64,000 nt of DNA from Candidatus Blackburnbacteria bacterium RIFCSPHIGHO2_12_FULL_44_25 (GTDB taxonomy: Bacteria; Patescibacteriota; Microgenomatia; UBA8517; UBA10165): positions 7,965 through 71,964 of the forward strand of contig MHCB01000038.1 of NCBI GenBank assembly GCA_001816455.1. The letters run 5' to 3'. Made by a program: the position numbers and the translations under genes. This document shows positions 10,260 through 62,783 of this stretch, one piece after another; within the stretch, counting starts at the first letter, position 1; each line of letters begins with the position of its first letter. Below the pieces are notes generated by a model. It was not told the DNA's origin and made no database searches. It was given only the letters and a program-made list of their open reading frames with translations.

Positions 10260-10838
10260 TTGGGCATTTTTATGAAGTGGATTAGTCGGCTCTATATTGT
10301 TTTTGTCGGGATAATTTTGTCGATTACGACAGGCTACGGCTTGGCGGCTTTTTACCCCGACCCCAAAGCCTTTGTTAGTCTTGAGACCAAACCGTATCCT
10401 GTCATACCCCGAAGTTGTACAGAAACTCCCGCGCAGCAAAGCTCTCCTCCCTGTCAGAAGTATTTTGAGGATGAAAGGAAATACCAGGAAGAGCAAAATG
10501 CAAAACAGGAAGAACTTCAGAAAAAGCAGGAAGAGCAAAGGAACCGGAGCGCAGCGTATACTCGGACTGCTGTGTTTTTTGGAATAACTGCAGGGGCGTT
10601 TTATGCGATTTTAGGACTTTTACTGCTTCGTTCTTCAAAACTTGTATCCAATGGGTTGATGCTTGCGGGGGTTTTGACGGCCGTATTGACACGATTTTTA
10701 GTTAGTCTTGCGAGCTTGGGAGCGGGGGTTACCGGGAGCGTTGGTGCGGACAGTATGGCGTATGTTCAGTTTGGAGTTTTGCTTCTTCTCTCTGTGGCGG
10801 TGATTTTTGCCGGGAAGACTGTTTTGAGGGATGAATGA
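10260..10838 (+). CDS. hypothetical membrane protein with a central charged/coiled segment
   Basis: 192-aa ORF with an N-terminal TM, a QEEQNAKQEELQKKQEEQ stretch and C-terminal TMs. Confidence 0.5.
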   Translation: MGIFMKWISRLYIVFVGIILSITTGYGLAAFYPDPKAFVSLETKPYPVIPRSCTETPAQQSSPPCQKYFEDERKYQEEQNAKQEELQKKQEEQRNRSAAYTRTAVFFGITAGAFYAILGLLLLRSSKLVSNGLMLAGVLTAVLTRFLVSLASLGAGVTGSVGADSMAYVQFGVLLLLSVAVIFAGKTVLRDE

Positions 10839-10839
10839 T

Positions 10840-10915
10840 TGGTGGACGGTAGAGGACTCGAACCTCTGACTTCATTCACGTCAAGAATGCGCTCTACCAA
10901 CTGAGCTAACCGTCC
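10840..10915 (-). tRNA. tRNA-Val(GAC)
   Basis: Manual cloverleaf GGACGGT-TA-GCTCAGTTGGTAGAGC-G-CATTC-TTGACGT-GAATG-AAGTC-AGAGGTTCGAGTCCTCT-ACCGTCC-A-CCA. CCA is encoded. Confidence 0.85.
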
Positions 10916-11053
10916 TGGTTGTTTGTCAAAATGTGCTTCGTTTAGGTTGACAACTGAGTTGCGCCTGTCGGCGCCCGCTGTGCGGTAACCGTCCCGGTGA
11001 GCCATATTATACCAGATGTTTTGTCTTTGAGTGTTCTTATGTGTGTGCCTCCA

Positions 11054-11095
11054 ACACTTCGGGAGTGTAATGGCTTTACACATCGGGAGATGTGT
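11054..11095. repeat. REP-A hairpin pair (ACACTTCGGGAGTGT and ACACATCGGGAGATGTGT) upstream of RAYT-1
   Basis: Two adjacent short palindromes with GGGA-type loops, 13 bp upstream of the RAYT-1 start. Confidence 0.6.
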
Positions 11096-11107
11096 TAGTA
11101 TTAGAAT

Positions 11108-11773
11108 ATGCCAACTCGTATAATTCCTTTGGGAACTGGTGAGTTTTACCACGTCTTTAATCGTGGAATTGCAAAGCAGCCTGTGTTTTTGGATAAACGA
11201 GATTACAGACAAATGATATTGGGTCTCTCATACTATCGTTTTGCGGTGCCCCCAATAAGACTATCGTTTTTTAAGACACTCCCGTTGGATCAGAAATCAT
11301 ATTTATGGAAGGAGCTCCAAACTAGAAATGAGAAGCTAGTTGAAATTGTAGCTTTTGCTTTGATGCCTAATCACTTTCACTTACTACTAAGGCAGGAAGC
11401 TGAAAATGGCATATCTACGTTTATGAGGCGGTTGGCTAATAGCTACACGCGCTTTTTTAATACCAAGGATGGCCGCAAAGGGCCAATTTTTCAAGGGGTT
11501 TTTAAGGCTGTGCATGTCTCTACAACAGAGCAACTTATGCATGTGTCGCGATACATCCATGTAAACCCGGTAGTTTCTTATGTGATAAAAGAGAGTGAGA
11601 TGTTTAGTTACCCTTGGACTTCTTTACCAGAGTTTTTGGGTGATCCAAGTATGGCAATGCCAGAACCGGTTTTGTCGTTATTTTCTTCTAAAGACGACTA
11701 TAAAGATTTCGTTTTGGATCAAGTTGACTATGGTAAGCGGTTAGAGGAGATAAAGCACCTTGTTTTTGAGTAA
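11108..11773 (+). CDS. IS200/IS605-family HUH Y1 transposase / REP-associated tyrosine transposase (RAYT-1)
   Basis: HuH motif LMPNHFHLL and the conserved …VSRYIHVNPV… region. Flanked on both sides by CACTYCGGGAGTG hairpins. Confidence 0.75.
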   Translation: MPTRIIPLGTGEFYHVFNRGIAKQPVFLDKRDYRQMILGLSYYRFAVPPIRLSFFKTLPLDQKSYLWKELQTRNEKLVEIVAFALMPNHFHLLLRQEAENGISTFMRRLANSYTRFFNTKDGRKGPIFQGVFKAVHVSTTEQLMHVSRYIHVNPVVSYVIKESEMFSYPWTSLPEFLGDPSMAMPEPVLSLFSSKDDYKDFVLDQVDYGKRLEEIKHLVFE

Positions 11774-11796
11774 GATCCGGATGTGTGAAGTTGTTA

Positions 11797-11809
11797 CACT
11801 CCGGGAGTG
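11797..11809. repeat. REP-A hairpin (CACTCCGGGAGTG) downstream of RAYT-1
   Basis: Same 13-nt palindrome family as at 11054-11068, 24 bp after the RAYT-1 stop. Confidence 0.55.
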
Positions 11810-11850
11810 AACTTGTACCTACACCTTGGGGGAGAAAGGTTGTTTTGCGT

Positions 11851-12501
11851 TCAACCTGCGGAGCGTTGGGAGTAGTCCTCTGAGGAGAGAAGGCGTTGTG
11901 CTCCGCTTTTTCCCACTTGACCCCAGAAGGTCTTTTTCTTTGAGGATCTTTTGTTTTGGCTTTGGAGCCAGAGATTGGCTTGGTGAATCTTTACTCTAAA
12001 GGACCTTAAGAAGGAAAGCAGTTTTTCAAAAAAGGCTACATGGTAGGTTCCGGGTTCTGTGGTTACTTGTATCGCGGCGATTTTGGTTTCTTGAGAGAGT
12101 CCGACTATCTCTTTTGCAATTTTCTCGGCCTCCCCCTGCAGTGCTTTTAATTGGAGCTTTAACTTATCTGTTTCCTTTTCATTGAAAGCTTCTCCTTCCT
12201 GCCTAAGTTGCTTTTCTCTATAAAGTTGAGCACGGAGAACTTTGTTTTCGCCTCTTTCGGCTTCGAGTACCTTATCTATCTGGACCGACTGGCCCATTTT
12301 TATTTCTCCCGAAGCATTGACTAGGGTTTTCTCTTGCCCTAAAAATTGCCTCAGAAAACCCTTTGAGGTTTCTGCCAGAAGATCATCTTTAAAAGAATCG
12401 AAGGTTCCGCGTCCTATGTCTCTCATAGACTCAACGAAGTTGTCGCTTTGGGGGGAGATCTTTTTGGTTTTTTGGTTGGTTTGGTAGGTAGTTTTTGTCA
12501 T
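11851..12501 (-). CDS. hypothetical coiled-coil protein
   Basis: 216-aa ORF, K/E/Q-rich with heptad-like segments. Confidence 0.45.
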   Translation of the reverse strand: MTKTTYQTNQKTKKISPQSDNFVESMRDIGRGTFDSFKDDLLAETSKGFLRQFLGQEKTLVNASGEIKMGQSVQIDKVLEAERGENKVLRAQLYREKQLRQEGEAFNEKETDKLKLQLKALQGEAEKIAKEIVGLSQETKIAAIQVTTEPGTYHVAFFEKLLSFLRSFRVKIHQANLWLQSQNKRSSKKKTFWGQVGKSGAQRLLSSEDYSQRSAG

Positions 12502-21967: not shown

Positions 21968-22008
21968 AATTGAGGCTTTTGGCCTATCCGGCTACAATTA
22001 TACCAAAT

Positions 22009-23157
22009 ATGGATAATACCGAAAAACAAATCGAAGCTATTCAAGAGGAAATGCGCAAGACCCCGTACCATAAAGGTACTCAAAAGTGGTTTGGGAAAAT
22101 GCGGGCAAAGATAGCAAGGTTGAGAGACCAGATTCTCTGGCGTCCGTTTTTGGCAAGGCAAGGTGGGGGTGGTTTTTCCGTTCGTAAGTTTGGGGATAGT
22201 TCTGTTGTTTTAGTTGGTTTGCCTTCTGTTGGTAAATCCACTCTTCTTAATGCGCTGACTAATGCCAAATCCCCTACTGCAGAATATGCTTTTACTACGG
22301 TTTCTGTGATTCCTGGGATGATGAATTTCAATGGAGCACAAATTCAGATTTTGGACGTTCCCGGACTTATCGAAGGGGCTTCCAGAGGAGCAGGGCGTGG
22401 TCGGGAGGTTTTGTCGGTTGTACGAGGAGCTGACCTTCTTTTGATCATTGGTGAGCGTGGGAAAGAAGAGAATCAGTTTATGCAAATTGACCGTGAACTT
22501 TTAACAAACGGTGTTCGAATAAATCAGGAACCGCCAGAGGTTGCTGTTAAAAAGCTGCTTCGCGGGGGTATAAAGATAAATTCTACTTTTAAGCAAGAAA
22601 TTGACCGCGAGACGATTCGGGAGGTTGCAAAGGAGTTTGGGATTATAAATGCGGAGATTACTATTCGCGAGAAATTGACCCTTGATCGATTGATTGATGT
22701 GTTTGCCACGAGTCGTGTTTATGTGCCGGCTTTGTATGTTATTAATAAGGTGGATAAGCTGAATTTTGGTGGTACCCCTGAGGTGCGGGTACAATTTCAC
22801 TTCGGGAGTGAAGCAGGTACGACACCTCGGGAGGTTGTAAGGATCAGTGCGGAACGAGGGTTGGGGTTGGAGAGTTTGAGAGAGAAAATGTGGGAGGTGT
22901 TGGGGTTGGTAAGGGTTTATCTTCGTGATCCGAGAGGCCACCCCCGCAGTCATAGCGTGTTCGGTGGACGCTTGGACTTAGAGCAGGTGATAGTTCATAC
23001 GGAGGAAACGTTGGGTGGGGTTTTGGGAAAGTTGGGCCCCGATGCTTCTATTGGAAAAACTGAGGCGCGAATTTGGGGACCTGGGGCAAGATTCCCCGGG
23101 CAAATTGTTTCTTTGGGGACAAAGGTACAAGACAGGATGGAGGTAACTTTCGTTTAG
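22009..23157 (+). CDS. DRG/Obg-HflX-like GTPase with a C-terminal TGS domain
   Basis: G1 GLPSVGKSTLLNALT, G3 DVPGLIEGA, a TGS-like C-terminus (…LVRVYLRDPRG…). Start at MDNTEKQ. Confidence 0.75.
   Translation: MDNTEKQIEAIQEEMRKTPYHKGTQKWFGKMRAKIARLRDQILWRPFLARQGGGGFSVRKFGDSSVVLVGLPSVGKSTLLNALTNAKSPTAEYAFTTVSVIPGMMNFNGAQIQILDVPGLIEGASRGAGRGREVLSVVRGADLLLIIGERGKEENQFMQIDRELLTNGVRINQEPPEVAVKKLLRGGIKINSTFKQEIDRETIREVAKEFGIINAEITIREKLTLDRLIDVFATSRVYVPALYVINKVDKLNFGGTPEVRVQFHFGSEAGTTPREVVRISAERGLGLESLREKMWEVLGLVRVYLRDPRGHPRSHSVFGGRLDLEQVIVHTEETLGGVLGKLGPDASIGKTEARIWGPGARFPGQIVSLGTKVQDRMEVTFV
22771..22835. repeat. composite hairpin mini-element (GTACCC…GGGTAC, CACTTCGGGAGTG, ACCTCGGGAGGT) inside the DRG GTPase ORF, in frame
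   Basis: Three consecutive palindromes, including the REP-A 13-mer, encode …GGTPEVRVQFHFGSEAGTTPREVV… without breaking the reading frame. Confidence 0.5.
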
Positions 23158-23972: not shown

Positions 23973-23993
23973 TGACAGGGTGGAACCCTGTCA
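23973..23993. repeat. REP-B palindrome TGACAGGGTGGAACCCTGTCA
   Basis: 9-bp arms with a 3-nt loop. One of six copies in the window. Confidence 0.7.
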
Positions 23994-24546: not shown

Positions 24547-25059
24547 ATGGCGGTAATACTTGACGGTGAAGAAAAAATAACTGCTAGGGCGCATGCAGAT
24601 TTGGAGGGAGATACGATTTCCGGAACTGCGGATTTTGAGGAACTTCAAATTGGCACCCAGACTTTGGTTCGTATAACTGTTGAGCTTTCTGGTGATCCGG
24701 AAAAACTTGTCCCGGGACTTCATGCTGTTCATATTCATGAGAAGGCAAGTTGTGAAGGGGGTTTTAAGTGCGCTGGGGGACATTTTGACCCGGGGCCTGC
24801 GGGGAATACGGACCCGGACGCGAACCATCCTTACCATGCTGGTGATTTGCCGAATATAGAAATCGGAGAGGATGGTAAGGGAAAATTACAGTGTGTTACG
24901 ACTCGTGTAACCCTTTCTCCGGGGCCTCTTTCCATATTGGAAGGTGAGGGCACTTCTCTCATGATTCATGGCAATCCGGACCCTTATCGTGGCGGACCTA
25001 CGGGTTCGGGGATTTCTGGCGGGCCAAGGGTTGCTTGTGGGGTGGTTAAAGTGGTGTGA
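24547..25059 (+). CDS. sodC: Cu/Zn superoxide dismutase
   Basis: …HAVHIHEKASCEGGFKCAGGHFDPG…HAGDLPN…RVACGVV… with metal-ligand His residues and a disulfide Cys. No obvious signal peptide. The TGA stop lies inside the REP-B copy at 25057. Confidence 0.8.
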   Translation: MAVILDGEEKITARAHADLEGDTISGTADFEELQIGTQTLVRITVELSGDPEKLVPGLHAVHIHEKASCEGGFKCAGGHFDPGPAGNTDPDANHPYHAGDLPNIEIGEDGKGKLQCVTTRVTLSPGPLSILEGEGTSLMIHGNPDPYRGGPTGSGISGGPRVACGVVKVV

Positions 25060-25077
25060 CAGGGTTCCACCCTGTCA
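25057..25077. repeat. REP-B palindrome TGACAGGGTTCCACCCTGTCA
   Basis: Identical arms to the other copies; provides the sodC stop codon. Confidence 0.7.
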
Positions 25078-47100: not shown

Positions 47101-48769
47101 ACGAAAGTTTCTTTTAATGCCCAATCCCCCTGTTTCCGATCAGGCACCAAGACCAGGATTAGGAAAGATCGTAGCGGATATTAGAAATAATTCTCCCGTC
47201 TTTGAGGAGCAGTGGAAGACGGATAGTTTTTTAAGATCGTTGGATGACATAGAGAAAGATCCCTTTAAGATACTTGCGCCCCCAGGAAGTTCTGATAGAG
47301 AAACTGCTGTATATAGGCTAATTGGTGATGCGGTTCGGAAGGATCCCGTTGCTCAGAAGGAGGTTCAAGAGGCGGTAAATTCTTATTATTCAAGCTATGT
47401 TGATATTTTGAAGAGAGTTGAAGCTCAGACTGAGATTCCGAACACTCCCGGAGAATATATGCTGTCTGCTGCTAATTCGTTTTCTGCGCGAGTTCAGGGA
47501 GTTGGACAGTTGATTACAGGTGGATTTAGCGCTTTGAATCCGTTCAAGAAAGCCGGAGTTAGTGTTGATCTAAAGCCAGTTCCTGTTCGGTCAATTGGGG
47601 GTTCAGAGGGAATTTCTGCTGGCAGACAGGGTGTCACGGAAGGTTTGGTGCAGGTGGTAGATGTAGGTAGTTCGCAGACGGTTTTGGGAGTGGGCACGGA
47701 AAATGTACAAGCAAAGGCGTTGTTTACTGGAGTTGATACGACTCTTCCGGTATCAAGCTATACACTGTCGCAGGCTATAAGCGAGGTGCCAGAAGACGGA
47801 GGCGTTCTAAGCGAGGAAACACTTGCAAAAAGCCTTGCGTCGAGTGTTTTGGAGCCCGAAGGATATAGAATTGGTAATAACTATGTTTTGGCAACAGGAG
47901 AAGATGGGAATGTGGTTGCGAAGATTCCTTCGGGGAGATATTCATTGCAGGCAAGGCCAGTTGATACTGTTCTTTTAACAGGGATGCCTGGGGAGTTTTA
48001 CCTTGGGCCCGGTTTGGGGGCAAAGGTATTTGTTGGGGTGTATGCCGCCGACCCGCCTGTTGGCGAGGCAGGTGGAGAGAAGGTTGTCGGTCGGGCCCAG
48101 GTGATTCCAACAAACGATGGCGAACTTACCGTTCAGTTGTACGACGACACAAACGGAAACGGCCTACGCGAAGCCGGAGAAAACACAATTAAATGGGCTG
48201 GGGTTGTTTTCACTGCTGCCCAAGAAGAAACTATCGGCGAAGTCTCGCTTCTTAACGGTTGGAATTTGGTAGGATTCTCAAATACTCCCCGAACGGTTAA
48301 AACCGCTTCCGGTTTGGTGCGTGAAGTTGTAAGGCAAGGAGGAGATGTTACTGCCATTTCAAGGTTGGTTGATGATCGTTGGGAGACGTATGTTCAACGG
48401 GGAAGCGAAACGTTTGGCAACGACTTTCCGTTGGAAGCAGGCAAAGGATATTTTGTTCGTTCGAGAGTCGCCTCAACAATTCTTCTTGGAGGAGAGCCGG
48501 TTACTAATACAAGGATAAAGCTTTCGCGCGGATGGAATGTTGTTTCTACGTCCGGGGCGGCAGAACCTATCACTGTTTCTGCATTCATTGATAAGATGGT
48601 TATGGCAAGAAGGACATCTGAGCCCGATGTTGTCTCTCGTTGGGAATCAGGGTTGTGGGATTCGTTTGTCAAAAAAGCTGGAGAGGATTATGGAAACGAC
48701 TTCCCCATTGCTCCATTTCGTGGTTACATCATAAAAGCCAAAGACGATGTTGAGTTTGAGTTTCAATAG
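38108..48769 (+). CDS. giant secreted multidomain protein (3553 aa) with a J-domain, a PP2C-like phosphatase core, an HExxH motif, Cys-rich modules, a coiled coil and Ca-binding C-terminal repeats
   Basis: Single uninterrupted ORF. Good RBS (AAGGAGGG). Signal peptide MRVFLKKAGVIFLVFVNFISPLYPVVWITPVRAS. P/E/Q-rich linker. Three GCCxD…C…NGAC modules. A/E/R/Q-rich coiled coil. J-domain DYYKILGVS…KKWHPDV…LTD. PP2C motifs TTLVGGTVVNGKLLAVSYGDSYIYILRDG / GDRVIFASDGF / GDDVTIG. DHERVHG motif. DDTNGNG SdrD-B-like repeats. Confidence 0.8.
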   Translation: MRVFLKKAGVIFLVFVNFISPLYPVVWITPVRASQEQSSLLAYSDDDGDGVPDEVSEEQPPEEAPVEEPQPSEDAPQPDVPQEEAPPQEAPPQESPPQEENEPVQDQPSDSPPSPPEAAPPPQEVVSAPSIPEQPSGSGTGGYFTPGDGSSPSAPTPTFCPSVGKYEGDEYQECYGPGTSRHVRISGCSWQIVQEVVSNPACPGAGTPESTQFQDTQEQNNTEENYCSGLGRYKGSTWSVCSGNPGEATAWQASAACEAVSVGSAGEPNCAGSVGSLPQDGVGSLPLPGESTQVLNPSPSISACGIEMSFQRCVLGTTTLISGVMLSTVDLETQKCTTTEQIQSTSENSTSCGYSDVSQDKIPPGSGGCCNVDDDCVAQGFEGQECLVSNGACSGAGKSCATPQAEVAAKIKSGVDGCCSDGSQCGSGEECYVGNGACRSGLSCGAERTNSGSGGCCSDFSDCASQGLKFNGCFSSFDAGLCKSGQSCRPISCSGAQFCSGGTACYDQGQCANYQAELARQRAQAALASARSQCYSSLEPGCVAILAGGDQIVIEDAGQAQSLCNTNTVTGYSCGGATAAASSANSSGLRSTSGLAVGDRVIVDGVETTITEVDGSLVKVANNPYWFGEFYAKSVSEKPAQNQSFGQIIILPDGQQAAVKSVKANGDLVLWDGKEISSSSNTAKPIVPKEAATVNTSLSCNDFFEQEYTAPTVADGETVSVSGSKYQCSLGGWTKIGNADDGTFFPDAINPGVKQLAIQVGANVHLGQDDRRAPTFLDVLPVLPGMSKAETDYEKVLRVLNELGIPPEFDPNNPISARVWTEEKKIEFAKRVGQETDRSPLATVMRSLENTPLGFVVNLVSDVNIGELSDHISGAGAILQFAQGESRDAHFSEADAIADNKYTDEEFAVLAQAMQEKGVIANTSELPNKGDLALYDRVVKEFLAKQAFGSYGLQVVGPDQVAVLRRQLETDPAKLEELKNFANFTGIVSAEESDKLTPGFMATGRVGTEKIQSYQKGTYQSAAGQAFLEEAGEAAQGVAQDLAFVAGANVAIAIAAEAGAGRIVGWGVGRVAGTEVGQAVAKFATHSILKIPSEEVLSDVTREGLDVAKREYLEAQRARVLAFGDEAVSGSESFLQKNADEARRKLEEAYRGAFGDDADKVLESAVSKLDIMAGADVSQIVREQGEEYAQKFAGQTSVSDAVVNPSVVADNAFSPADQVVAASSRQGRVVLESIPDGAAGVVDDIPTNYPGVVAEVAEVTDSIDARGGGGFVQDAQDAVGGFFGRFRRSELDPLEAVEDRIAAEAVGDVSARTVDVSPATSRFTKMTPKSIDDAVEMTEDARRFKARLDDLARRIDGVTDNTVRRQLEEEVDQTRGTLIVIRKKADEAIEEIQSFRQDDEVVSRIKAEMEQTRVIASNVGGGNVFDTLKTRFEELPLPSFLRGGSESQLAPYKFEFTPEERLRIEAAKQDLKVKREEALARSRAQVEAIKKEQIDAEARVAAETVEAQQRRQAAQLAQDEAERARLIAESEASAQRAKAAEAEARAKARTANEEQARQASREQDVAARDEEIIEAQIIAERQVADARAKEETRQQATEFLSRQRELEERANRAKSAADEAERKLRQVDNAIAARQTEIDVTIAQAFALRDQYQIVKDLESDLLDSIPEQAHKILVSADYYKILGVSPSATTDEINRAYRSLSKKWHPDVSSQDLEAATLAFKKLTYAKDVLTDTIPIQGATGVYVRRNYYDAASHDAIRQQILAKDPSNFSDAVAYINRQQAKMSEAARAVEQANQRAQQAVRAAEPLNSRIEELQRAREQYLQSAEQHTRTVQAAEQDLQTAAREVMQGQPLTPTQVAYRELNDAGQEYTEKLAEVRTLREERKVAASGGVAGLDFADATSRLDAAEVELKQAAERVKAAQLAYQDSVQSPVERAGGAISDFFDQVTSFFGRGRSASQVADATEVVADVGRVAGPSLRFVQPTAQQVVPASPGLKVGSGVNVSSSGQDAFATGISSAAVADGVSTGGTPSQVVELAQLAANALVERLDAAASRFTDPVLAKQYLENSVTEFAQFVVRQNFELGAARGLYGPEALKQASTTLVGGTVVNGKLLAVSYGDSYIYILRDGKLIKVNEQVKEYLGYNEPNLVSVIIHDLQIGDRVIFASDGFVSFISDNARGKIVKAAGSTNDPQVFALRAQEILRDYYREKGVGDDVTIGSLFYGDLDVKPGLLDGLFDRVPAARSFYISKTDVQASTLSIHARNSAGDIVETRLSVEEVIHRGASSLGDKFTDGAKKQVLLELRGKGVPQSTLDEISRELKRIKKPEDVRSKLVKFTGIPVLGEPTAVSGGVFKSLGLTFPWSEKKFVVEKLEGDQGFAGIRVTARDANGVERKIIIDPSNVDGSYQYPANGFDYKLDELRELGVDERTIQQIDKQLERMAKKSVFDKTPVGQVGGSPFAPANDVAQQTDDVCKVLGASTDSVLGTSTTGGCQKPSLFDLLNPFNKIQPASKIDDVVTVVTSPEETKAIASRLIKTEESTVKMGDFSLSTIKGDDPTNDGLIFYLKPGQNLPKNVVITDKSGNVVDLGKRDTPLLFSDVRKIEIDGTDYSLAHDIWQNPMLFEIRGSSKDAKFDEVIGDITEIWDTAIKSPRRMDAVLAKNFTGEEISAMKKITDFYAQDPNIGGLTAPYDLDTVVELPDDKLAEYLNRTLPFRQVRESDISVFTGLISALKEGRAFTEKEADMFSALEFRHVVATRNVYRGLDEVYITEFNRQFALANMAEAVLSTRLVSKKPFKEHAKHYGDFVELMQSRGVEVPEWVTPFNSDDFRYGIKTDGTKANAAGQYFVSRLEDFDSMAQVLDHERVHGLSKVAYNRNVEFKIRNKLDVEYDRGFASDEGYTDALAYLIKSGGDVDKAIAENAKSTSSYRLASDEILRVAKEVGAASGDEMLGVELLFRGITDRANSSVNRSLVPIQRYYDEKVADSGAKFEERMARFSDKRKFLLMPNPPVSDQAPRPGLGKIVADIRNNSPVFEEQWKTDSFLRSLDDIEKDPFKILAPPGSSDRETAVYRLIGDAVRKDPVAQKEVQEAVNSYYSSYVDILKRVEAQTEIPNTPGEYMLSAANSFSARVQGVGQLITGGFSALNPFKKAGVSVDLKPVPVRSIGGSEGISAGRQGVTEGLVQVVDVGSSQTVLGVGTENVQAKALFTGVDTTLPVSSYTLSQAISEVPEDGGVLSEETLAKSLASSVLEPEGYRIGNNYVLATGEDGNVVAKIPSGRYSLQARPVDTVLLTGMPGEFYLGPGLGAKVFVGVYAADPPVGEAGGEKVVGRAQVIPTNDGELTVQLYDDTNGNGLREAGENTIKWAGVVFTAAQEETIGEVSLLNGWNLVGFSNTPRTVKTASGLVREVVRQGGDVTAISRLVDDRWETYVQRGSETFGNDFPLEAGKGYFVRSRVASTILLGGEPVTNTRIKLSRGWNVVSTSGAAEPITVSAFIDKMVMARRTSEPDVVSRWESGLWDSFVKKAGEDYGNDFPIAPFRGYIIKAKDDVEFEFQ

Positions 48770-54777: not shown

Positions 54778-54981
54778 GTGTATAACTGGAACATAAACAC
54801 TTCAAAACTTAAGAAAAACCCTGAGAAATATGCTGTTTGGAAACTTGAGCAAAGTATTAATTTTGGCCTTAACGGGAAAAAACTGAAGATTAGTGAGTTA
54901 AAAAAGTATTGGGCTAAACTAGTTGTTGACCCACAAAGAAAAAAACTTCTAGAAATGTGGCTATGGCCAAAACAATCTTAA
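54778..54981 (+). CDS. small protein upstream of AbiEii (possible truncated AbiEi-like antitoxin)
   Basis: 67-aa ORF with a GTG start, 8 nt after an extended -10 (TGGTATAAT at 54761-69). Overlaps the AbiEii start. Confidence 0.25.
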   Translation: MYNWNINTSKLKKNPEKYAVWKLEQSINFGLNGKKLKISELKKYWAKLVVDPQRKKLLEMWLWPKQS

Positions 54982-55622
54982 CCGAAGAACAACAGCTCCT
55001 TCTTAATCTGATCTCCCAACAAAAAGATATAGCGAGTAACTTCTATTTGTCTGGTGGCACAGCCTTGGCTGAGTATTACCTTCAACATAGATTATCGGAG
55101 GATTTGGATTTTTTTAGCATGGAAGAAGTTGACCCCATGGCTATACGGGTGAGTCTTAAAAAAGTACAAAAACGAGCGGAGATAACTAAGATTGATTTTC
55201 AACAAAGTTTTAATCGGAATCTATTTTTTCTTCACTATAAAGACGGGATTGTTAAGATGGAATTTACTTATTATCCGTTTACTCAAATTGAGCAACCACA
55301 AATTGTCAACAACATTAAGGTTGATAGTTTAATAGATATTGCTGCCAACAAAACATTTACGATTTACCAACAGCCAAGCAGTAGACATTTTATCGATCTT
55401 TACTTGATTATCAAGACAAAGGGGTGGAAGTTTAAGGATTTAATCAAAAAAGCACGAGCTAAGTTTGATTCCCCTATTGACCCTATTCAAATGGGCCAGC
55501 AATTGCTAAAAGTGTCTGAGGTGTTAGATTATCCGGTTATGATTATTGAATTGCTGGAGAAAGAATGGCAGGATTTTTGGATGCAAGAGGCTCGGAGTTT
55601 AAAAGAGGAAGCTCTTGAATAA
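54957..55622 (+). CDS. nucleotidyltransferase AbiEii/AbiGii-family toxin (DUF1814)
   Basis: …FYLSGGTALAEYYLQHRLSEDLDFF…, the characteristic GS…D.D NTase motif; 221 aa. Confidence 0.65.
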   Translation: MAMAKTILTEEQQLLLNLISQQKDIASNFYLSGGTALAEYYLQHRLSEDLDFFSMEEVDPMAIRVSLKKVQKRAEITKIDFQQSFNRNLFFLHYKDGIVKMEFTYYPFTQIEQPQIVNNIKVDSLIDIAANKTFTIYQQPSSRHFIDLYLIIKTKGWKFKDLIKKARAKFDSPIDPIQMGQQLLKVSEVLDYPVMIIELLEKEWQDFWMQEARSLKEEALE

Positions 55623-61940: not shown

Positions 61941-62130
61941 ATAATATGAATTATGCCCGCGCGTAACAGTGTGAAGATCTACGTAGAAGGTGGTTGTTAC
62001 CATGTTTACAATCGGGGCGTAGATAAACGTGACATTTATCTTGACGATCAGGATTATCGTGTTTTCTTGAGTTTTATTAAACAGTATCTTTCTCCCGTTG
62101 AACCGAATTTTACACACCCCTTGTCTGATG

Positions 62131-62151
62131 TGACAGGGTTTCACCCTGTCA
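62131..62151. repeat. REP-B palindrome inside the RAYT-2 ORF (encodes VTGFHPV)
   Basis: TGACAGGGTTTCACCCTGTCA, in frame. Confidence 0.7.
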
Positions 62152-62420
62152 GGCTGCGTCAGTTGAAGTCTTTTTATGGTGATGTGGAGCTTCTAGCTTA
62201 TTGTTTGATGCCGAACCATTTTCACCTTCTACTTAGGCAGGCTACTAAGGATGGGATGGCTGAGTTTTTGCGAGCCCTGGCTACGAGTTATGTCATGTAT
62301 TTTAATAAGAAATATGAGCGGCAGGGTGCTCTTTTCCAGGGGTGTATAAAGCAGCTAATGTGGGGGAGGATTCATACCTTTTGCATTTGTCGCGATACAT
62401 TCATTTGAACCCACTCGGTA

Positions 62421-62441
62421 TGACAGGGTTCCACCCTGTCA
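62421..62441. repeat. REP-B palindrome inside the RAYT-2 ORF (encodes MTGFHPV)
   Basis: TGACAGGGTTCCACCCTGTCA, in frame. Confidence 0.7.
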
Positions 62442-62632
62442 AGGCCTATCCTTACTCTAGTTATGCTTACTATTTGGGAGGGAAGAATGCTCAGTGGATT
62501 AACCCTAGTTTTGTACTAGGTTTCTTTAAGGAACGAGCTCGAATGGGGTTGCGCGACCATTTTTCTTATGAGGCGTTTGTAGAAGATTTTTCGATAGATT
62601 CTGCGGAGATGGTGGGAGAACTTGCTCTTGAG

Positions 62633-62680: not shown

Positions 62681-62764
62681 GCCGAGGTGACGAAATCGGT
62701 ATACGTGAGGGCCTTAAGAGCCCTTGTCCTTTTGGGCGTGCGGGTTCGAGTCCCGCCCTCGGCA
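62681..62764 (+). tRNA. tRNA-Leu(TAA)
   Basis: Type II tRNA GCCGAGG-TG-…-AGGGC-CTTAAGA-GCCCT-long variable arm-GCGGGTTCGAGTCCCGC-CCTCGGC-A. No CCA. Confidence 0.8.
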
Positions 62765-62783
62765 CTCCTGTTTGCTTTCCTAA

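What the first reader, a model, noticed from the sequence alone, without database searches (positions are those of the whole stretch)
11054..11809. Second REP family (CACTYCGGGAGTG hairpins) flanking RAYT-1: a REPtron-like unit
RAYT-1 (11108-11773) is bracketed by 13-18 nt GGGA-loop hairpins at 11054-11068, 11078-11095 and 11797-11809. The family is distinct from the one around RAYT-2. This suggests two RAYT lineages, each with a cognate REP.
Basis: seen in the sequence. Interest (0 to 1): 0.5.

Follow-up and report, generated by a model that had tools for sequence, protein, structure and literature searches.

The report
Tyrosine transposase gene bracketed by cognate palindromes
A domesticated-looking single-strand-DNA transposase gene in an ultra-small (CPR) bacterium sits between two copies of its own ~60-base palindromic repeat. 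A third copy is translated in frame inside an essential GTPase gene, so this is a low-copy variant of the known REP/RAYT system in a phylum where none is described in the literature library I searched.

Summary
The three hairpins are real and at the stated coordinates, but they are pieces of a larger unit. This unit is a ~60-nt imperfect palindrome. It has an outer arm (TCCCGATGTGT), a ~10-nt spacer, an inner hairpin (ACACTTCGGGAGTGT), a second ~10-nt spacer, and the other outer arm (GCACATCGGGA).

- **Copies in the window.** One copy abuts each end of RAYT-1, at 11030-11098 and 11772-11841. A third lies in frame inside a GTPase gene, at 22772-22842.
- **The second hairpin.** It overlaps the gene's -35 box.
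- **The protein.** RAYT-1 is a Y1 HUH enzyme with motifs NHFH, FQG and YIHVNP. Its best fold match is E. coli RAYT (4ER8).
- **Relatives.** In at least 53 of 83 homologous loci from CPR bacteria, the gene is bracketed by the same hairpin. The hairpin sequence changes with lineage through compensatory substitutions.
- **Paralogues.** Paralogues, including RAYT-2 in this window, carry different hairpins.
- **The GTPase copy.** At the orthologous GTPase site, the inner hairpin matches the RAYT-flank type of its own genome (shown for two genomes; two further pairings are not informative or rest on a shared sample).

Dispersed copies are few, at one or two per ~80 kb. The genome-wide number could not be measured.

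Verdict: the REPtron-like reading is supported. The system is a new low-copy variant of the REP/RAYT and TIRtron kind.

The parts
10840..10915 (-). tRNA-Val(GAC). It is the conserved upstream neighbour of the unit in the close clade.
   Evidence: ARAGORN and Rfam tRNA at 67 bits. A tRNA-like sequence lies upstream of the RAYT orthologue in the flank sequences of L087, L088 and L089 (read by eye, not run through a tRNA finder).
11030..11098 (+). Upstream copy of the ~60-nt composite repeat. It has a degenerate outer arm at 11034-11044 (TTCTTATGTGT), the inner hairpin at 11054-11068 (ACACTTCGGGAGTGT), and the 3' outer arm at 11078-11088 (ACACATCGGGA). That arm extends here to a local hairpin ending at 11095. 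A -35-like TTTACA lies at 11075-11080.
   Evidence: nhmmer gives 51.0 bits and the covariance model 66.9 bits, E 1e-17. See alignments A2 and A6 and the DNA fold with z -3.1.
11108..11773 (+). RAYT-1, a 221-aa Y1 HUH tyrosine transposase-like protein. It carries HUH as NHFH (residues 88-91), FQG, and the catalytic Tyr in YIHVNP (Y149).
   Evidence: Pfam Y1_Tnp scores 36.8 bits, E 5e-9. NCBIfam REP_Tyr_transpos scores 52.9 bits, below its cut-off of 80. The invariant columns are in A1. The AF2 model has pLDDT 85 and its best PDB match is 4er8_A at E 6.4e-6.
11772..11841 (+). Downstream copy of the composite repeat. It has the 5' outer arm at 11776-11786 (TCCGGATGTGT), the inner hairpin at 11797-11809 (CACTCCGGGAGTG), and a degenerate 3' outer arm at 11821-11834 (ACACCTTGGGGGAG).
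   Evidence: nhmmer gives 47.6 bits and the covariance model 58.7 bits, E 2.7e-15. See alignment A6.
22772..22842 (+). Solo, complete copy of the composite repeat. It has the outer arm at 22776-22786 (CCCTGAGGTGC), the inner hairpin at 22796-22812 (TTCACTTCGGGAGTGAA), and the outer arm at 22822-22834 (ACACCTCGGGAGG). It is translated in frame as TPEVRVQFHFGSEAGTTPREV.
   Evidence: The covariance model gives 63.5 bits, E 1e-16. It folds as a long hairpin at -14.2 kcal/mol, z -3.0. The translation is and the codon view.
21970..23157 (+). Host gene of the solo copy. It is an Obg/DRG-like ribosome-binding GTPase with MMR_HSR1 and MMR_HSR1_Xtn domains. The repeat sits in the loop between G4 (NKVD) and G5 (ISAE).
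   Evidence: NCBIfam Obg-type hits, precomputed Pfam domains of its homologues and alignment A3. The loop is 28 aa here, against 10-15 aa in P0126, P0127 and P0129-P0131 and in more distant homologues.

Best explanation
RAYT-1 is a single-copy, vertically inherited Y1 HUH single-strand-DNA nuclease/transposase. It belongs to the RAYT/TIRYT branch, and its motif signature fits TnpAY1 subclass 2.1.

**The unit.** The gene is tightly bracketed by two direct copies of its cognate ~60-nt imperfect palindrome. Each copy has an 11-bp outer stem, two ~10-nt spacers, and a 6-bp inner hairpin with a 3-nt loop. The upstream copy doubles as the gene's promoter. Its 3' outer arm lies between a -35 box and a -10 box, and this spacing predicts a leaderless mRNA.

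**Proposed mechanism (inferred).** The palindrome extrudes as a long hairpin when DNA is single-stranded at the replication fork. The enzyme recognises the inner hairpin together with the repeated CAC(A/T/C)TCGGGA motif. It then cuts and rejoins the single strand nearby, as shown biochemically for E. coli TnpA-REP and IS608 TnpA. This activity occasionally copies or replaces repeat units elsewhere in the genome.

**Outcome.** The genome carries a small population of solo copies. Intergenic space is scarce in these genomes, so solo copies often survive only as in-frame insertions in tolerant protein loops. These copies are kept matched to the enzyme's current hairpin type.

**Shown:** the anatomy, the conservation of the arrangement, the covariation, the fold, the solo and intragenic copies, and the within-genome matching.

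**Inferred:** binding, the cleavage sites, mobilisation by this enzyme, the promoter, and the leaderless transcript.
For: **The enzyme**
- HUH and Tyr are invariant in 29 homologues.
- Pfam Y1_Tnp scores above its threshold.
- The best fold match is E. coli RAYT bound to a REP hairpin, 4er8_A, at E 6.4e-6 and TMt 0.69. This is ahead of the IS608 and ISDra2 TnpA structures.

**Single copy and vertical inheritance**
- The 23 contigs read for the identical protein collapse to seven places. The gene neighbourhood is the same in all seven.
- Synteny (tRNA-Val - RAYT - DUF5660 - trigger factor) holds in orthologues down to 63% identity.
- Only two family members occur in 64 kb, and they are 41% identical.

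**The cognate repeat**
- Three composite copies were found by HMM and by covariance model.
- The bracketing arrangement recurs in at least 53 of 83 homologue loci, with lineage-specific hairpins.
- On 26 distinct sites the long-hairpin structure is 86.6% paired, against 74.9% in shuffles and 34-50% when the partner columns are slid.
- On the same alignment, 12 of 17 pairs carry double-sided changes. The covariation score is 0.351 against 0.157, and 0 of 500 shuffles reach it.
- Alternative pairings score lower.

**Within-genome matching at the orthologous GTPase site**
- Window: inner hairpin CACTTCGGGAGTG, the same as its RAYT flanks.
- L213, which is the same genome as L089 at 99.95% identity: CCACCTCGGAGGTGG, the same as the L089 flanks.
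- L214: CCACCTTCCAGGTGG, the same as that genome's own RAYT flanks.
- The spacers stay specific to the GTPase site.

**Promoter**
- An exact TTGACA lies about 37 nt before the start codon in 43 of 82 loci, against 2.3% background.
- 36 of those 43 have TAnnnT at the proper spacing.

**Other intragenic solo copies in relatives**
- They occur in a GT4 glycosyltransferase, an RsmI-like methylase and MurT.
Against: - **Copy number is low.** I found one clear solo copy in 64 kb and one divergent copy in a further 18 kb. Across about 1.1 Mb of relatives' flanks there were only about 13 strict extra copies.
- **The genome-wide count was not obtained.** The metagenome pattern scan returned chance matches; only 1 of 120 was real.
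- **No activity was measured.**
- **The hairpin is a near-perfect palindrome with a single central base.** In 108 of 111 cases the centre falls on one base. Double-stranded recognition by a symmetric dimer would produce the same covariation.
- **There is no GTAG/GTGG tag at the hairpin foot,** so the E. coli recognition rule does not transfer.
- **NCBIfam's RAYT equivalog model scores below its cut-off**.
- **The window's own promoter is weak.** It reads TTTACA, and the consensus scan found none.
- **RAYT homologues tend to lie on the C-rich strand.** This holds in 21 of 30 loci, yet RAYT-1 here is on the G-rich strand. No simple replication-strand rule emerges.
Confidence: 0.75

Rival explanations
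1. The 0.8-kb unit (11030-11841) is an autonomous IS200-like insertion sequence. The two flanking repeats would be its left and right ends, and the whole gene would move.
For: - The unit is about 800 bp, with subterminal hairpins in direct orientation at both ends and a Y1 transposase inside.
- Homologues at 55% identity or less sit in unrelated genomic contexts.
Against: - The identical protein was read on 23 contigs. These collapse to seven places with the same gene neighbourhood.
- The position is syntenic in orthologues down to 63% identity.
- There is no second copy in the window or its extensions.
- The Y motif is YIHVNP (class 2, RAYT-type), not the Y---Q of IS200 transposases (PMC6006769).
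- The protein has a 70-aa C-terminal extension, and there is no tnpB.
- Repeat units occur alone, without the gene.
Confidence: 0.1
2. The palindromes are purely regulatory DNA or RNA for this gene. They would be an operator overlapping the promoter upstream and a transcript-end hairpin downstream. They would not be mobile, and the GTPase copy would be a relic or coincidence.
For: - The 3' outer arm sits between -35-like and -10-like boxes in about half of the loci.
- The palindrome has a single-base centre, which is typical of sites for dimeric double-strand binders.
- The downstream copy lies between convergent genes.
Against: - Complete solo copies exist far from any RAYT gene, including inside coding sequences.
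- The intragenic copy changes its hairpin in step with the RAYT flanks of its own genome.
- No T-tract follows the hairpins, and no terminator was called there.
- Autoregulation through the upstream copy is compatible with the main explanation rather than a substitute for it.
Confidence: 0.1
3. The hairpins are chance palindromes or ordinary sequence features with no relation to the gene.
For: - Generic CACNN-loop-NNGTG palindromes are not significantly enriched in the window. There are 5, against 1.8 expected and a maximum of 6 in the null.
Against: - The specific motif is enriched at 11 matches against 1.9 expected, with 0 of 100 shuffles reaching 11.
- Three ~60-nt copies score E 1e-15 to 1e-17 with the covariance model.
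- The arrangement recurs in dozens of independent loci.
Confidence: 0.01

Closest known systems
E. coli REPtron: TnpA-REP (RAYT, yafM) flanked by REP/BIME (PMC3333891; structure 4ER8, PMC3479197)
   Same: - Both have a single-copy Y1 HUH enzyme of class 2 (Y---NP motif).
- In both, the gene is bracketed by the palindromes that the enzyme is thought to process.
- 4ER8 is the best fold match.
- Each paralogue has its own repeat type.
   Different: - There is no 5' GT[AG]G tag here.
- The hairpin is a perfect short palindrome inside a ~60-nt composite, rather than a bulged 20-40-nt REP.
- There are a few copies per ~80 kb instead of hundreds per genome.
- The protein is 221 aa with a C-terminal extension.
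- It scores below NCBIfam's RAYT cut-off.
TIRYT/TIRtron (Di Nocera 2013, PMC3733652), equivalent to TnpAY1 subclass 2.1 (Quentin 2018, PMC6006769) and to Bertels RAYT Group 1 (PMC5581495)
   Same: - The motif signature NH[YF]H / FQ / Y[IV]HLNP matches.
- The length is about 220-240 aa with a C-terminal tail carrying an SS-type motif.
- The flanking repeats are low or moderate in copy number and partly self-complementary.
- In this window the flanks read as ~35-nt inverted repeats: hairpin plus arm upstream, and arm plus hairpin downstream.
   Different: - Quentin et al. found no REP-like structures for subclass 2.1, whereas here a structured palindrome is the rule.
- The GGGGWSAS motif of many TIRs is not present.
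- No HTH or DnaA-C-like domain was detected by Pfam.
- In close relatives (L087, L088, L024) both flanks are complete direct copies, not simple inverted repeats.
REPIN-RAYT systems of Pseudomonas (PMC3116915, PMC3337134)
   Same: - The non-autonomous unit is a long imperfect palindrome that folds as one hairpin.
- It is associated with a vertically inherited single-copy RAYT.
- Copies within a genome evolve together.
   Different: - The unit here is shorter, and its two halves are separated by only a 3-nt loop.
- The population size is far smaller.
- The host is a CPR bacterium with a very small genome.
IS200/IS605 elements (IS608, ISDra2)
   Same: - Both have the Y1 HUH fold.
- Both have subterminal hairpins in direct orientation on one strand.
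- Single-strand DNA chemistry is expected in both.
   Different: - The Y motif class differs.
- The gene here is single-copy and syntenic.
- There is no tnpB.
- The repeats exist on their own.
In-frame palindromic elements in coding genes: Rickettsia palindromic elements (from my own knowledge, Ogata et al. 2000), REPs inside genes (PMC3733652), and REPs inside subclass 2.4 tnpA genes (PMC6006769)
   Same: - A palindromic repeat is translated in frame in a surface loop of a conserved protein.
- It is retained across species.
   Different: - The inserted element here belongs to a RAYT-associated family.
- Its hairpin keeps pace with the enzyme-flanking copies in each genome.

Membership tests
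Y1 HUH transposase superfamily (Pfam Y1_Tnp) | HUH metal-binding motif and a single catalytic tyrosine on the Y1 fold | tested here: met
   NHFH and Y149 are invariant in A1. Pfam scores 36.8 bits against a cut-off of 23. Fold matches are 4er8, 2vjv and 2xm3.
RAYT / TnpA-REP (class 2 of TnpAY1) | Y---NP tyrosine motif, as opposed to the Y---Q of IS200 transposases | tested here: met
   The motif is YIHVNP in the window and YIHLNP in the family consensus. The criterion comes from PMC6006769, Table 1.
RAYT / TnpA-REP | Score above NCBIfam's REP_Tyr_transpos equivalog cut-off | tested here: not met
   The score is 52.9 bits against a cut-off of 80. The protein is a distant relative of the curated RAYT set.
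RAYT / TnpA-REP | Gene flanked on both sides by its cognate palindromic repeat (REPtron arrangement) | tested here: met
   In the window. In relatives the arrangement is present in at least 53 of 83 loci.
RAYT / TnpA-REP | Repeat carries a conserved 5' GT[AG]G tetranucleotide at the foot of the hairpin | tested here: not met
   No GTAG or GTGG is visible next to the inner hairpin or outer stem in the 26 aligned copies (by eye, no motif search run). The conserved elements are CAC..GTG arms and a GTAC/CTA-like spacer.
RAYT / TnpA-REP | Repeat dispersed in many (tens to hundreds of) copies per genome | tested here: inconclusive
   About 82 kb of this genome holds one solo copy and one divergent copy.
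RAYT / TnpA-REP | Single copy, vertically inherited | tested here: met
   The identical protein has one context. Synteny holds to 63% identity. This is not true at 55% identity or less.
TnpAY1 subclass 2.1 / TIRYT | Motif signature NH[YF]H, FQ, Y[IV]HLNP; median length about 238 aa; tail with an SS motif | tested here: met
   The window has NHFH, FQG and YIHVNP in 221 aa. The tail motif is WSS in the consensus and WTS in the window. The comparison is with PMC6006769 Table 1. It was made by motif only, not with the authors' profiles.
TnpAY1 subclass 2.1 / TIRYT | C-terminal HTH-like domain (Bac_DnaA_C, HTH_23 or HTH_28) | tested here: not met
   Only Y1_Tnp is found by Pfam at E up to 0.01. The C-terminal 70 aa fold as helices in the model but have no family match.
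TnpAY1 subclass 2.1 / TIRYT | Flanking terminal inverted repeats, many with GGGGWSAS | tested here: inconclusive
   The window flanks do read as ~35-nt inverted repeats. However, close relatives have complete direct copies on both sides, and GGGGWSAS is absent.
IS200/IS605 insertion sequence | Several near-identical copies per genome, often with tnpB | tested here: not met
   There is one context only. There is no second copy. There is no tnpB-like ORF next to the gene.
REPIN | Two inverted halves forming one long hairpin, supported by covariation | tested here: met
   On A6 the structure is 86.6% paired, 12 of 17 pairs have double changes, and 0 of 500 shuffles reach the score. DNA folds give z from -2.2 to -4.3 for complete copies.

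The most novel reading that the evidence does not exclude
The enzyme does more than scatter copies. It keeps rewriting existing copies through short-patch replacement or conversion limited to the ~15-nt inner hairpin. As a result, a loop of an essential ribosome-associated GTPase is repeatedly re-coded (HFGSE, HLGGG, HLPGG) to match the transposase's current recognition hairpin. This would be a domesticated single-strand-DNA transposase acting as a templated editor of a small set of genomic sites, coding ones included, across a whole CPR lineage. The published surveys I read did not cover this phylum and reported no REP for this enzyme subclass.
Probability: 0.25. Interest if true: 0.7.

Novelty: new variant of a known kind. 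Interest (0 to 1): 0.5.

Why it matters
- **It extends REP/RAYT biology to a new phylum and subclass.** The CPR/Patescibacteria were not covered by the published surveys I read. The TnpAY1 subclass whose motifs this protein carries (2.1, Group 1) was reported to lack REP-like structures.
- **The system is small enough to follow copy by copy.** It consists of one enzyme gene, two flanking repeats and a handful of solo copies.
- **The hairpin co-varies cleanly with enzyme lineage.** That makes the recognition code, and the question of whether RAYTs homogenise their repeats, directly testable.
- **It shows how such repeats survive in very compact genomes.** They persist as in-frame insertions in tolerant protein loops. 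This also matters for annotation, because some gene calls absorb the repeat as a false N-terminal extension (P0008, for example).

Tried and rejected
1. **Metagenome-wide exact-pattern scan.** Of 120 hits, 119 were chance matches and only L098 was a true composite.
3. **PDB search by sequence profile.** It gave only a weak ISDra2 TnpA hit at E 0.003. The fold search was needed to see 4ER8.
4. **Promoter, terminator and Rfam scans of 10700-12000.** No consensus promoter was called, there was no terminator at the hairpins, and no RNA family matched other than the tRNA.
5. **A hidden larger family of generic CAC..GTG palindromes in the window.** It is not enriched.
6. **Synteny of distant homologues.** There is none, so the unit does change place over long evolutionary times.
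7. **Alternative pairings within the composite.** I tested the 5' arm with the left half of the hairpin, and the right half of the hairpin with the 3' arm. Both are weaker than the long hairpin.
8. **A replication-strand rule.** The three copies here lie on the G-rich strand. Across relatives, however, the gene is mostly on the C-rich strand. No conclusion was drawn.
Full report
**1. The observation**

- ACACTTCGGGAGTGT lies at 11054-11068.
- ACACATCGGGAGATGTGT lies at 11078-11095.
- CACTCCGGGAGTG lies at 11797-11809.

They bracket the ORF at 11108-11773 (+), 221 aa. That ORF matches Pfam Y1_Tnp above threshold, at 36.8 bits against 23.

The motif CACTYCGGGAGTG with up to two mismatches occurs 11 times counting both strands, against 1.9 expected. 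None of 100 shuffles reached 11. One exact match was new, at 22798-22810.

The organism is a CPR bacterium, Candidatus Blackburnbacteria (Microgenomates). The protein is 100% identical to a Rifle groundwater MAG protein.

**2. What the repeat really is**

Orthologues at 73-75% identity (L087, L088) carry a longer unit on both sides of the gene. The unit reads TCCCGATGTGT, ~10 nt, ACACTTCGGGAGTG, ~10 nt, GCACATCGGGA.

Alignment of ten copies shows a conserved ~60-nt element (A2).
- The two outer arms are inverted repeats of each other.
- The 3' arm repeats the left half of the inner hairpin.

Mapped onto the window, this gives three parts.
- **Upstream copy, 11030-11098.** Its 5' arm is degenerate (11034-11044).
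- **Downstream copy, 11772-11841.** It has a good 5' arm (11776-11786) and a degenerate 3' arm (11821-11834).
- **Third, complete copy, 22772-22842.**

A profile HMM and a covariance model run over the whole window without filters find these three and nothing else. All three score best on the + strand.

As single-stranded DNA, complete copies fold into one long hairpin. Examples are -14.2 kcal/mol at z -3.0 for the third copy, and -16.5 kcal/mol at z -4.3 for its orthologue in L213.

**3. The protein**

The HUH motif (NHFH), FQG and the tyrosine motif (YIHVNP in the window, YIHLNP in the consensus) are invariant or nearly so in 29 homologues.

NCBIfam's curated RAYT model matches, but below its cut-off, at 52.9 bits against 80. 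A PDB sequence-profile search sees only ISDra2 TnpA weakly.

An AlphaFold model has pLDDT 85 and pTM 0.85. Its best solved match is E. coli RAYT bound to a REP hairpin, 4er8_A, at E 6.4e-6 and TM 0.69 on the target. This is ahead of the IS608, ISDra2 and IS200 transposases at E about 3e-3.

The motif set, the length and the tail motif agree with TnpAY1 subclass 2.1 of Quentin et al. (PMC6006769, Table 1).
- That subclass corresponds to Bertels' RAYT Group 1 and to most of Di Nocera's 'TIRYT' proteins.
- For that subclass the authors state that neither automatic nor manual searches found REP-like sequences.
- Di Nocera et al. (PMC3733652) describe such genes as flanked by terminal inverted repeats, some partly self-complementary and some moderately repeated.

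I placed the protein by motifs only, not with the authors' profiles.

**4. Is the association with the gene conserved?**

The family is large. The protein search returned 3,932 proteins at E up to 1e-5. I kept 79 of these with up to 10 kb on each side.

Most homologues carry a palindromic hairpin about 40 nt before the start codon and again 2-25 nt after the stop.
- The longest exact match shared by the two flanks is at least 11 nt in 38 of 77 loci. The figure is 3.75% when the flanks come from different loci.
- A stem of at least 5 bp upstream recurs downstream in 53 of 83 loci under one pairing rule, and in 54 of 80 under another.

The hairpin differs by lineage while staying self-complementary. 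Examples are CCACCT..AGGTGG, ACACCT..AGGTGT, CAACCT..AGGTTG, ACGATCCCGTATCGT, CACATCGGATGTG and TCACACACCCGGTGTGTGA.

On 26 distinct composite sites (A6), the long-hairpin structure of 11 outer and 6 inner pairs is well supported.
- It is 86.6% paired, against 74.9% in column shuffles and 34-50% when the partner columns are slid.
- 12 of 17 pairs show changes on both sides.
- The covariation score is 0.351 against 0.157, and 0 of 500 shuffles reach it.

Two alternative pairings are weaker.

Two caveats apply. The sequences are related. The hairpin is also a near-perfect palindrome centred on one base in 108 of 111 cases, so recognition of double-stranded DNA by a symmetric dimer would leave the same signature.

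**5. One repeat per enzyme lineage**

RAYT-2 (61953-62632) is 41% identical to RAYT-1. It is associated with an unrelated hairpin, GACAGGGTnnnACCCTGTC. That hairpin has six exact copies in the window against 0.22 expected.
- One copy lies on each side of the gene.
- Two are in frame inside the gene.
- Two are solo, at 23974 and 25058.

In MAG CAZTEW01, two paralogues (L018 and L068) also have different hairpins.

**6. Single-copy and inherited, not an active IS**

The identical protein was read on 23 contigs from many samples. These collapse to seven places with the same gene neighbourhood.

Orthologues at 75, 73 and 63% identity keep the position downstream of tRNA-Val and next to the DUF5660 and trigger-factor genes.

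At 55% identity or less there is no shared synteny. The unit therefore does relocate, or genomes rearrange, on long time scales.

Several short contigs of relatives begin about 160 nt upstream of the gene. Assemblers do this at repeats, so it is a weak hint of repetition.

**7. The solo copy is translated**

The third copy lies inside an Obg/DRG-type GTPase gene. It sits between the G4 motif NKVD and the G5 motif ISAE, and reads in frame as TPEVRVQFHFGSEAGTTPREV.

In alignment A3 this loop is 28 aa in the window.
- It is similar in the closest homologues (P0121-P0125).
- It is 10-15 aa in P0126, P0127 and P0129-P0131 and in all more distant homologues.
- The element is therefore an insertion that has been retained.

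**8. The intragenic copy tracks its own genome's enzyme-flanking hairpin**

DNA of the orthologous site gives the following.

| Genome | Inner hairpin at the GTPase site | Type flanking that genome's RAYT |
|---|---|---|
| Window | TTCACTTCGGGAGTGAA | CACTTCGGGAGTG / CACTCCGGGAGTG |
| L215 (same sample as L087) | CACTTCGGGAGTG | the L087 type |
| L213 (same genome as L089, 99.95% over 6.4 kb) | TTCCACCTCGGAGGTGGAA | CCACCTCGGAGGTGG at both flanks |
| L214 (another Blackburnbacteria MAG) | CCACCTTCCAGGTGG | the same, around its own RAYT at L214:2057-2707 (42.6% identical to RAYT-1) |

Only the L213 and L214 rows discriminate. The L215 hairpin is the same type as the window's, and its pairing with L087 rests on a shared sample, not a shown shared genome.

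The spacers of the window, L213 and L215 copies share GTPase-site-specific features (GGTACAA..., ...A(G/T)ATACGACAC). These copies are therefore orthologous, and only the hairpin has changed.

Three coordinated substitutions separate the window type from the L213 type. They preserve pairing and are the same three that separate the RAYT flanks.

The simplest readings are short-patch replacement or conversion, or repeated re-insertion at a pre-existing copy. I could not distinguish between these.

**9. More intragenic copies**

The same GTPase has a second hairpin relic of the CCACC..GGTGG type further downstream.
- It lies at window 22937-22975.
- It is clean in L215 as TCCACCTGCGAGGTGGA.
- It is clean in L214 as CACCTCGAAGGTG.

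Among 17 solo hairpin sites in relatives' flanks (16 from the strict search, plus one site in L098), three lie inside Pfam-supported genes.
- One is at a domain junction of a GT4 glycosyltransferase (L037).
- One is within an RsmI-like methylase (L038).
- One is just before the ligase domain of MurT (L035).

A predicted 28-aa N-terminal extension of P0008 appears to be a translated upstream repeat (inferred from the HLEGG motif in the extension; nhmmer places a repeat copy at L090:159-205, inside that extension).

**10. Promoter**

An exact TTGACA lies a median of 37 nt before the start codon in 43 of 82 loci, against 2.3% of random 70-nt windows. In 36 of these, TAnnnT follows at 15-19 nt.

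The -35 box abuts the 3' outer arm. The spacing predicts a transcript that starts at or within about 2 nt of the start codon. This is an inference.

In the window the box is TTTACA, and the consensus scan calls nothing. No terminator-like T-tract follows the hairpins.

**11. Copy number**

In the window plus about 18 kb of extensions (L216, L219) there is one clear solo copy. There is also one divergent copy upstream of rpsP, at L219:21215-21290.

In about 1.1 Mb of relatives' flanks, a strict search found about 13 extra hairpins.

The whole-genome number is unknown, because the metagenome scan was swamped by chance matches.

**12. Mechanism and standing**

By homology with E. coli TnpA-REP and IS608 TnpA, I infer three steps. 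These are established biochemistry for those proteins (PMC3333891, PMC3479197).
- The enzyme binds the extruded hairpin on single-stranded DNA.
- It cuts nearby through Y149, with the HUH-bound metal.
- It rejoins the strands.

This would account for copying or replacement of units. None of it was measured here, and the cleavage site is unknown.

The E. coli GTAG rule does not apply. The conserved candidates are the thrice-repeated CAC(A/T/C)TCGGGA motif and the GTAC/CTA-like spacers.

The + strand is G-rich throughout the window, and all three copies lie on it. Across relatives, however, the gene is on the G-rich strand in only 9 of 30 loci with clear skew, against 64% for other long ORFs. 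I draw no strand rule from this.

**13. Comparison and novelty**

This works like a REPtron or REPIN-RAYT system. By motif it belongs with the TIRYT / subclass 2.1 proteins.

It fails three classical REP criteria.
- There is no GTAG tag.
- High copy number is not shown.
- The curated RAYT model scores below its cut-off.

It is not an IS200-type insertion sequence.

I found no paper in the searchable library describing RAYT/REP systems in CPR bacteria.

I rate it a new variant of a known kind, of moderate interest. The most interesting open point is the within-genome matching of the intragenic hairpin.

Noticed in passing
window 61953-62632 (+): RAYT-2 is split by a one-base frameshift near 62346. 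The HUH half is in one frame and the YIHLNP half in another. The same 151-aa product is on record in 56 sample blocks, so the split is unlikely to be an error of one assembly. RAYT-2 is either a pseudogene or needs frameshifting.
   Followed up: partly
window 62132-62150 and 62422-62440: Two copies of RAYT-2's own hairpin (GACAGGGTnnnACCCTGTC) lie in frame inside the RAYT-2 coding sequence, reading VTGFHPV and MTGFHPV. Quentin et al. call this feature unique to subclass 2.4. Here it occurs in a protein with subclass-2.1-like motifs.
   Followed up: partly
window 23974-23992 and 25058-25076: Two solo intergenic copies of the RAYT-2-type hairpin, with perfect 8-bp stems. The second family is therefore also dispersed, even though its enzyme gene is broken.
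   Followed up: no
window 22937-22975 (L215:1073-1156, L214:10889-10969): A second in-frame hairpin site in the same GTPase, just before the C-terminal domain. It is degenerate in the window (CCACC...GGTGG). It is a clean TCCACCTGCGAGGTGGA in L215 and CACCTCGAAGGTG in L214.
   Followed up: partly
L008-L086 (30 loci with |GC skew| > 0.05): RAYT homologues are encoded on the G-rich strand in only 9 of 30 loci. By contrast, 64% of other long-ORF residues in the same loci are on that strand (p about 2e-4). RAYT-1 in this window is an exception. The meaning for a replication-fork mechanism is unclear.
   Followed up: partly
window 10840-10915 and 62681-62765: Both RAYT genes of the window lie next to a tRNA gene. 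tRNA-Val is about 190 nt upstream of RAYT-1, and tRNA-Leu is about 50 nt downstream of RAYT-2. L026 also has a tRNA-Arg about 90 nt after its RAYT. This could be chance or a preference for such intergenic spots.
   Followed up: no
L090-L092 (protein P0008): The database gene call for this RAYT orthologue starts about 28 codons too early. The 'extension' (…HLEGGTDSPP…) appears to be the translated upstream repeat, so the repeats cause annotation errors.
   Followed up: partly
window 38108-48769 (+): A single uninterrupted ORF of 3,553 aa.
   Followed up: no
window 54957-55622 (+), corresponding to L216:3011-3670: An ORF whose product carries the AbiEii toxin domain (PF08843). A ribbon-helix-helix gene lies nearby in some samples. 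This is a possible toxin-antitoxin or abortive-infection module.
   Followed up: no
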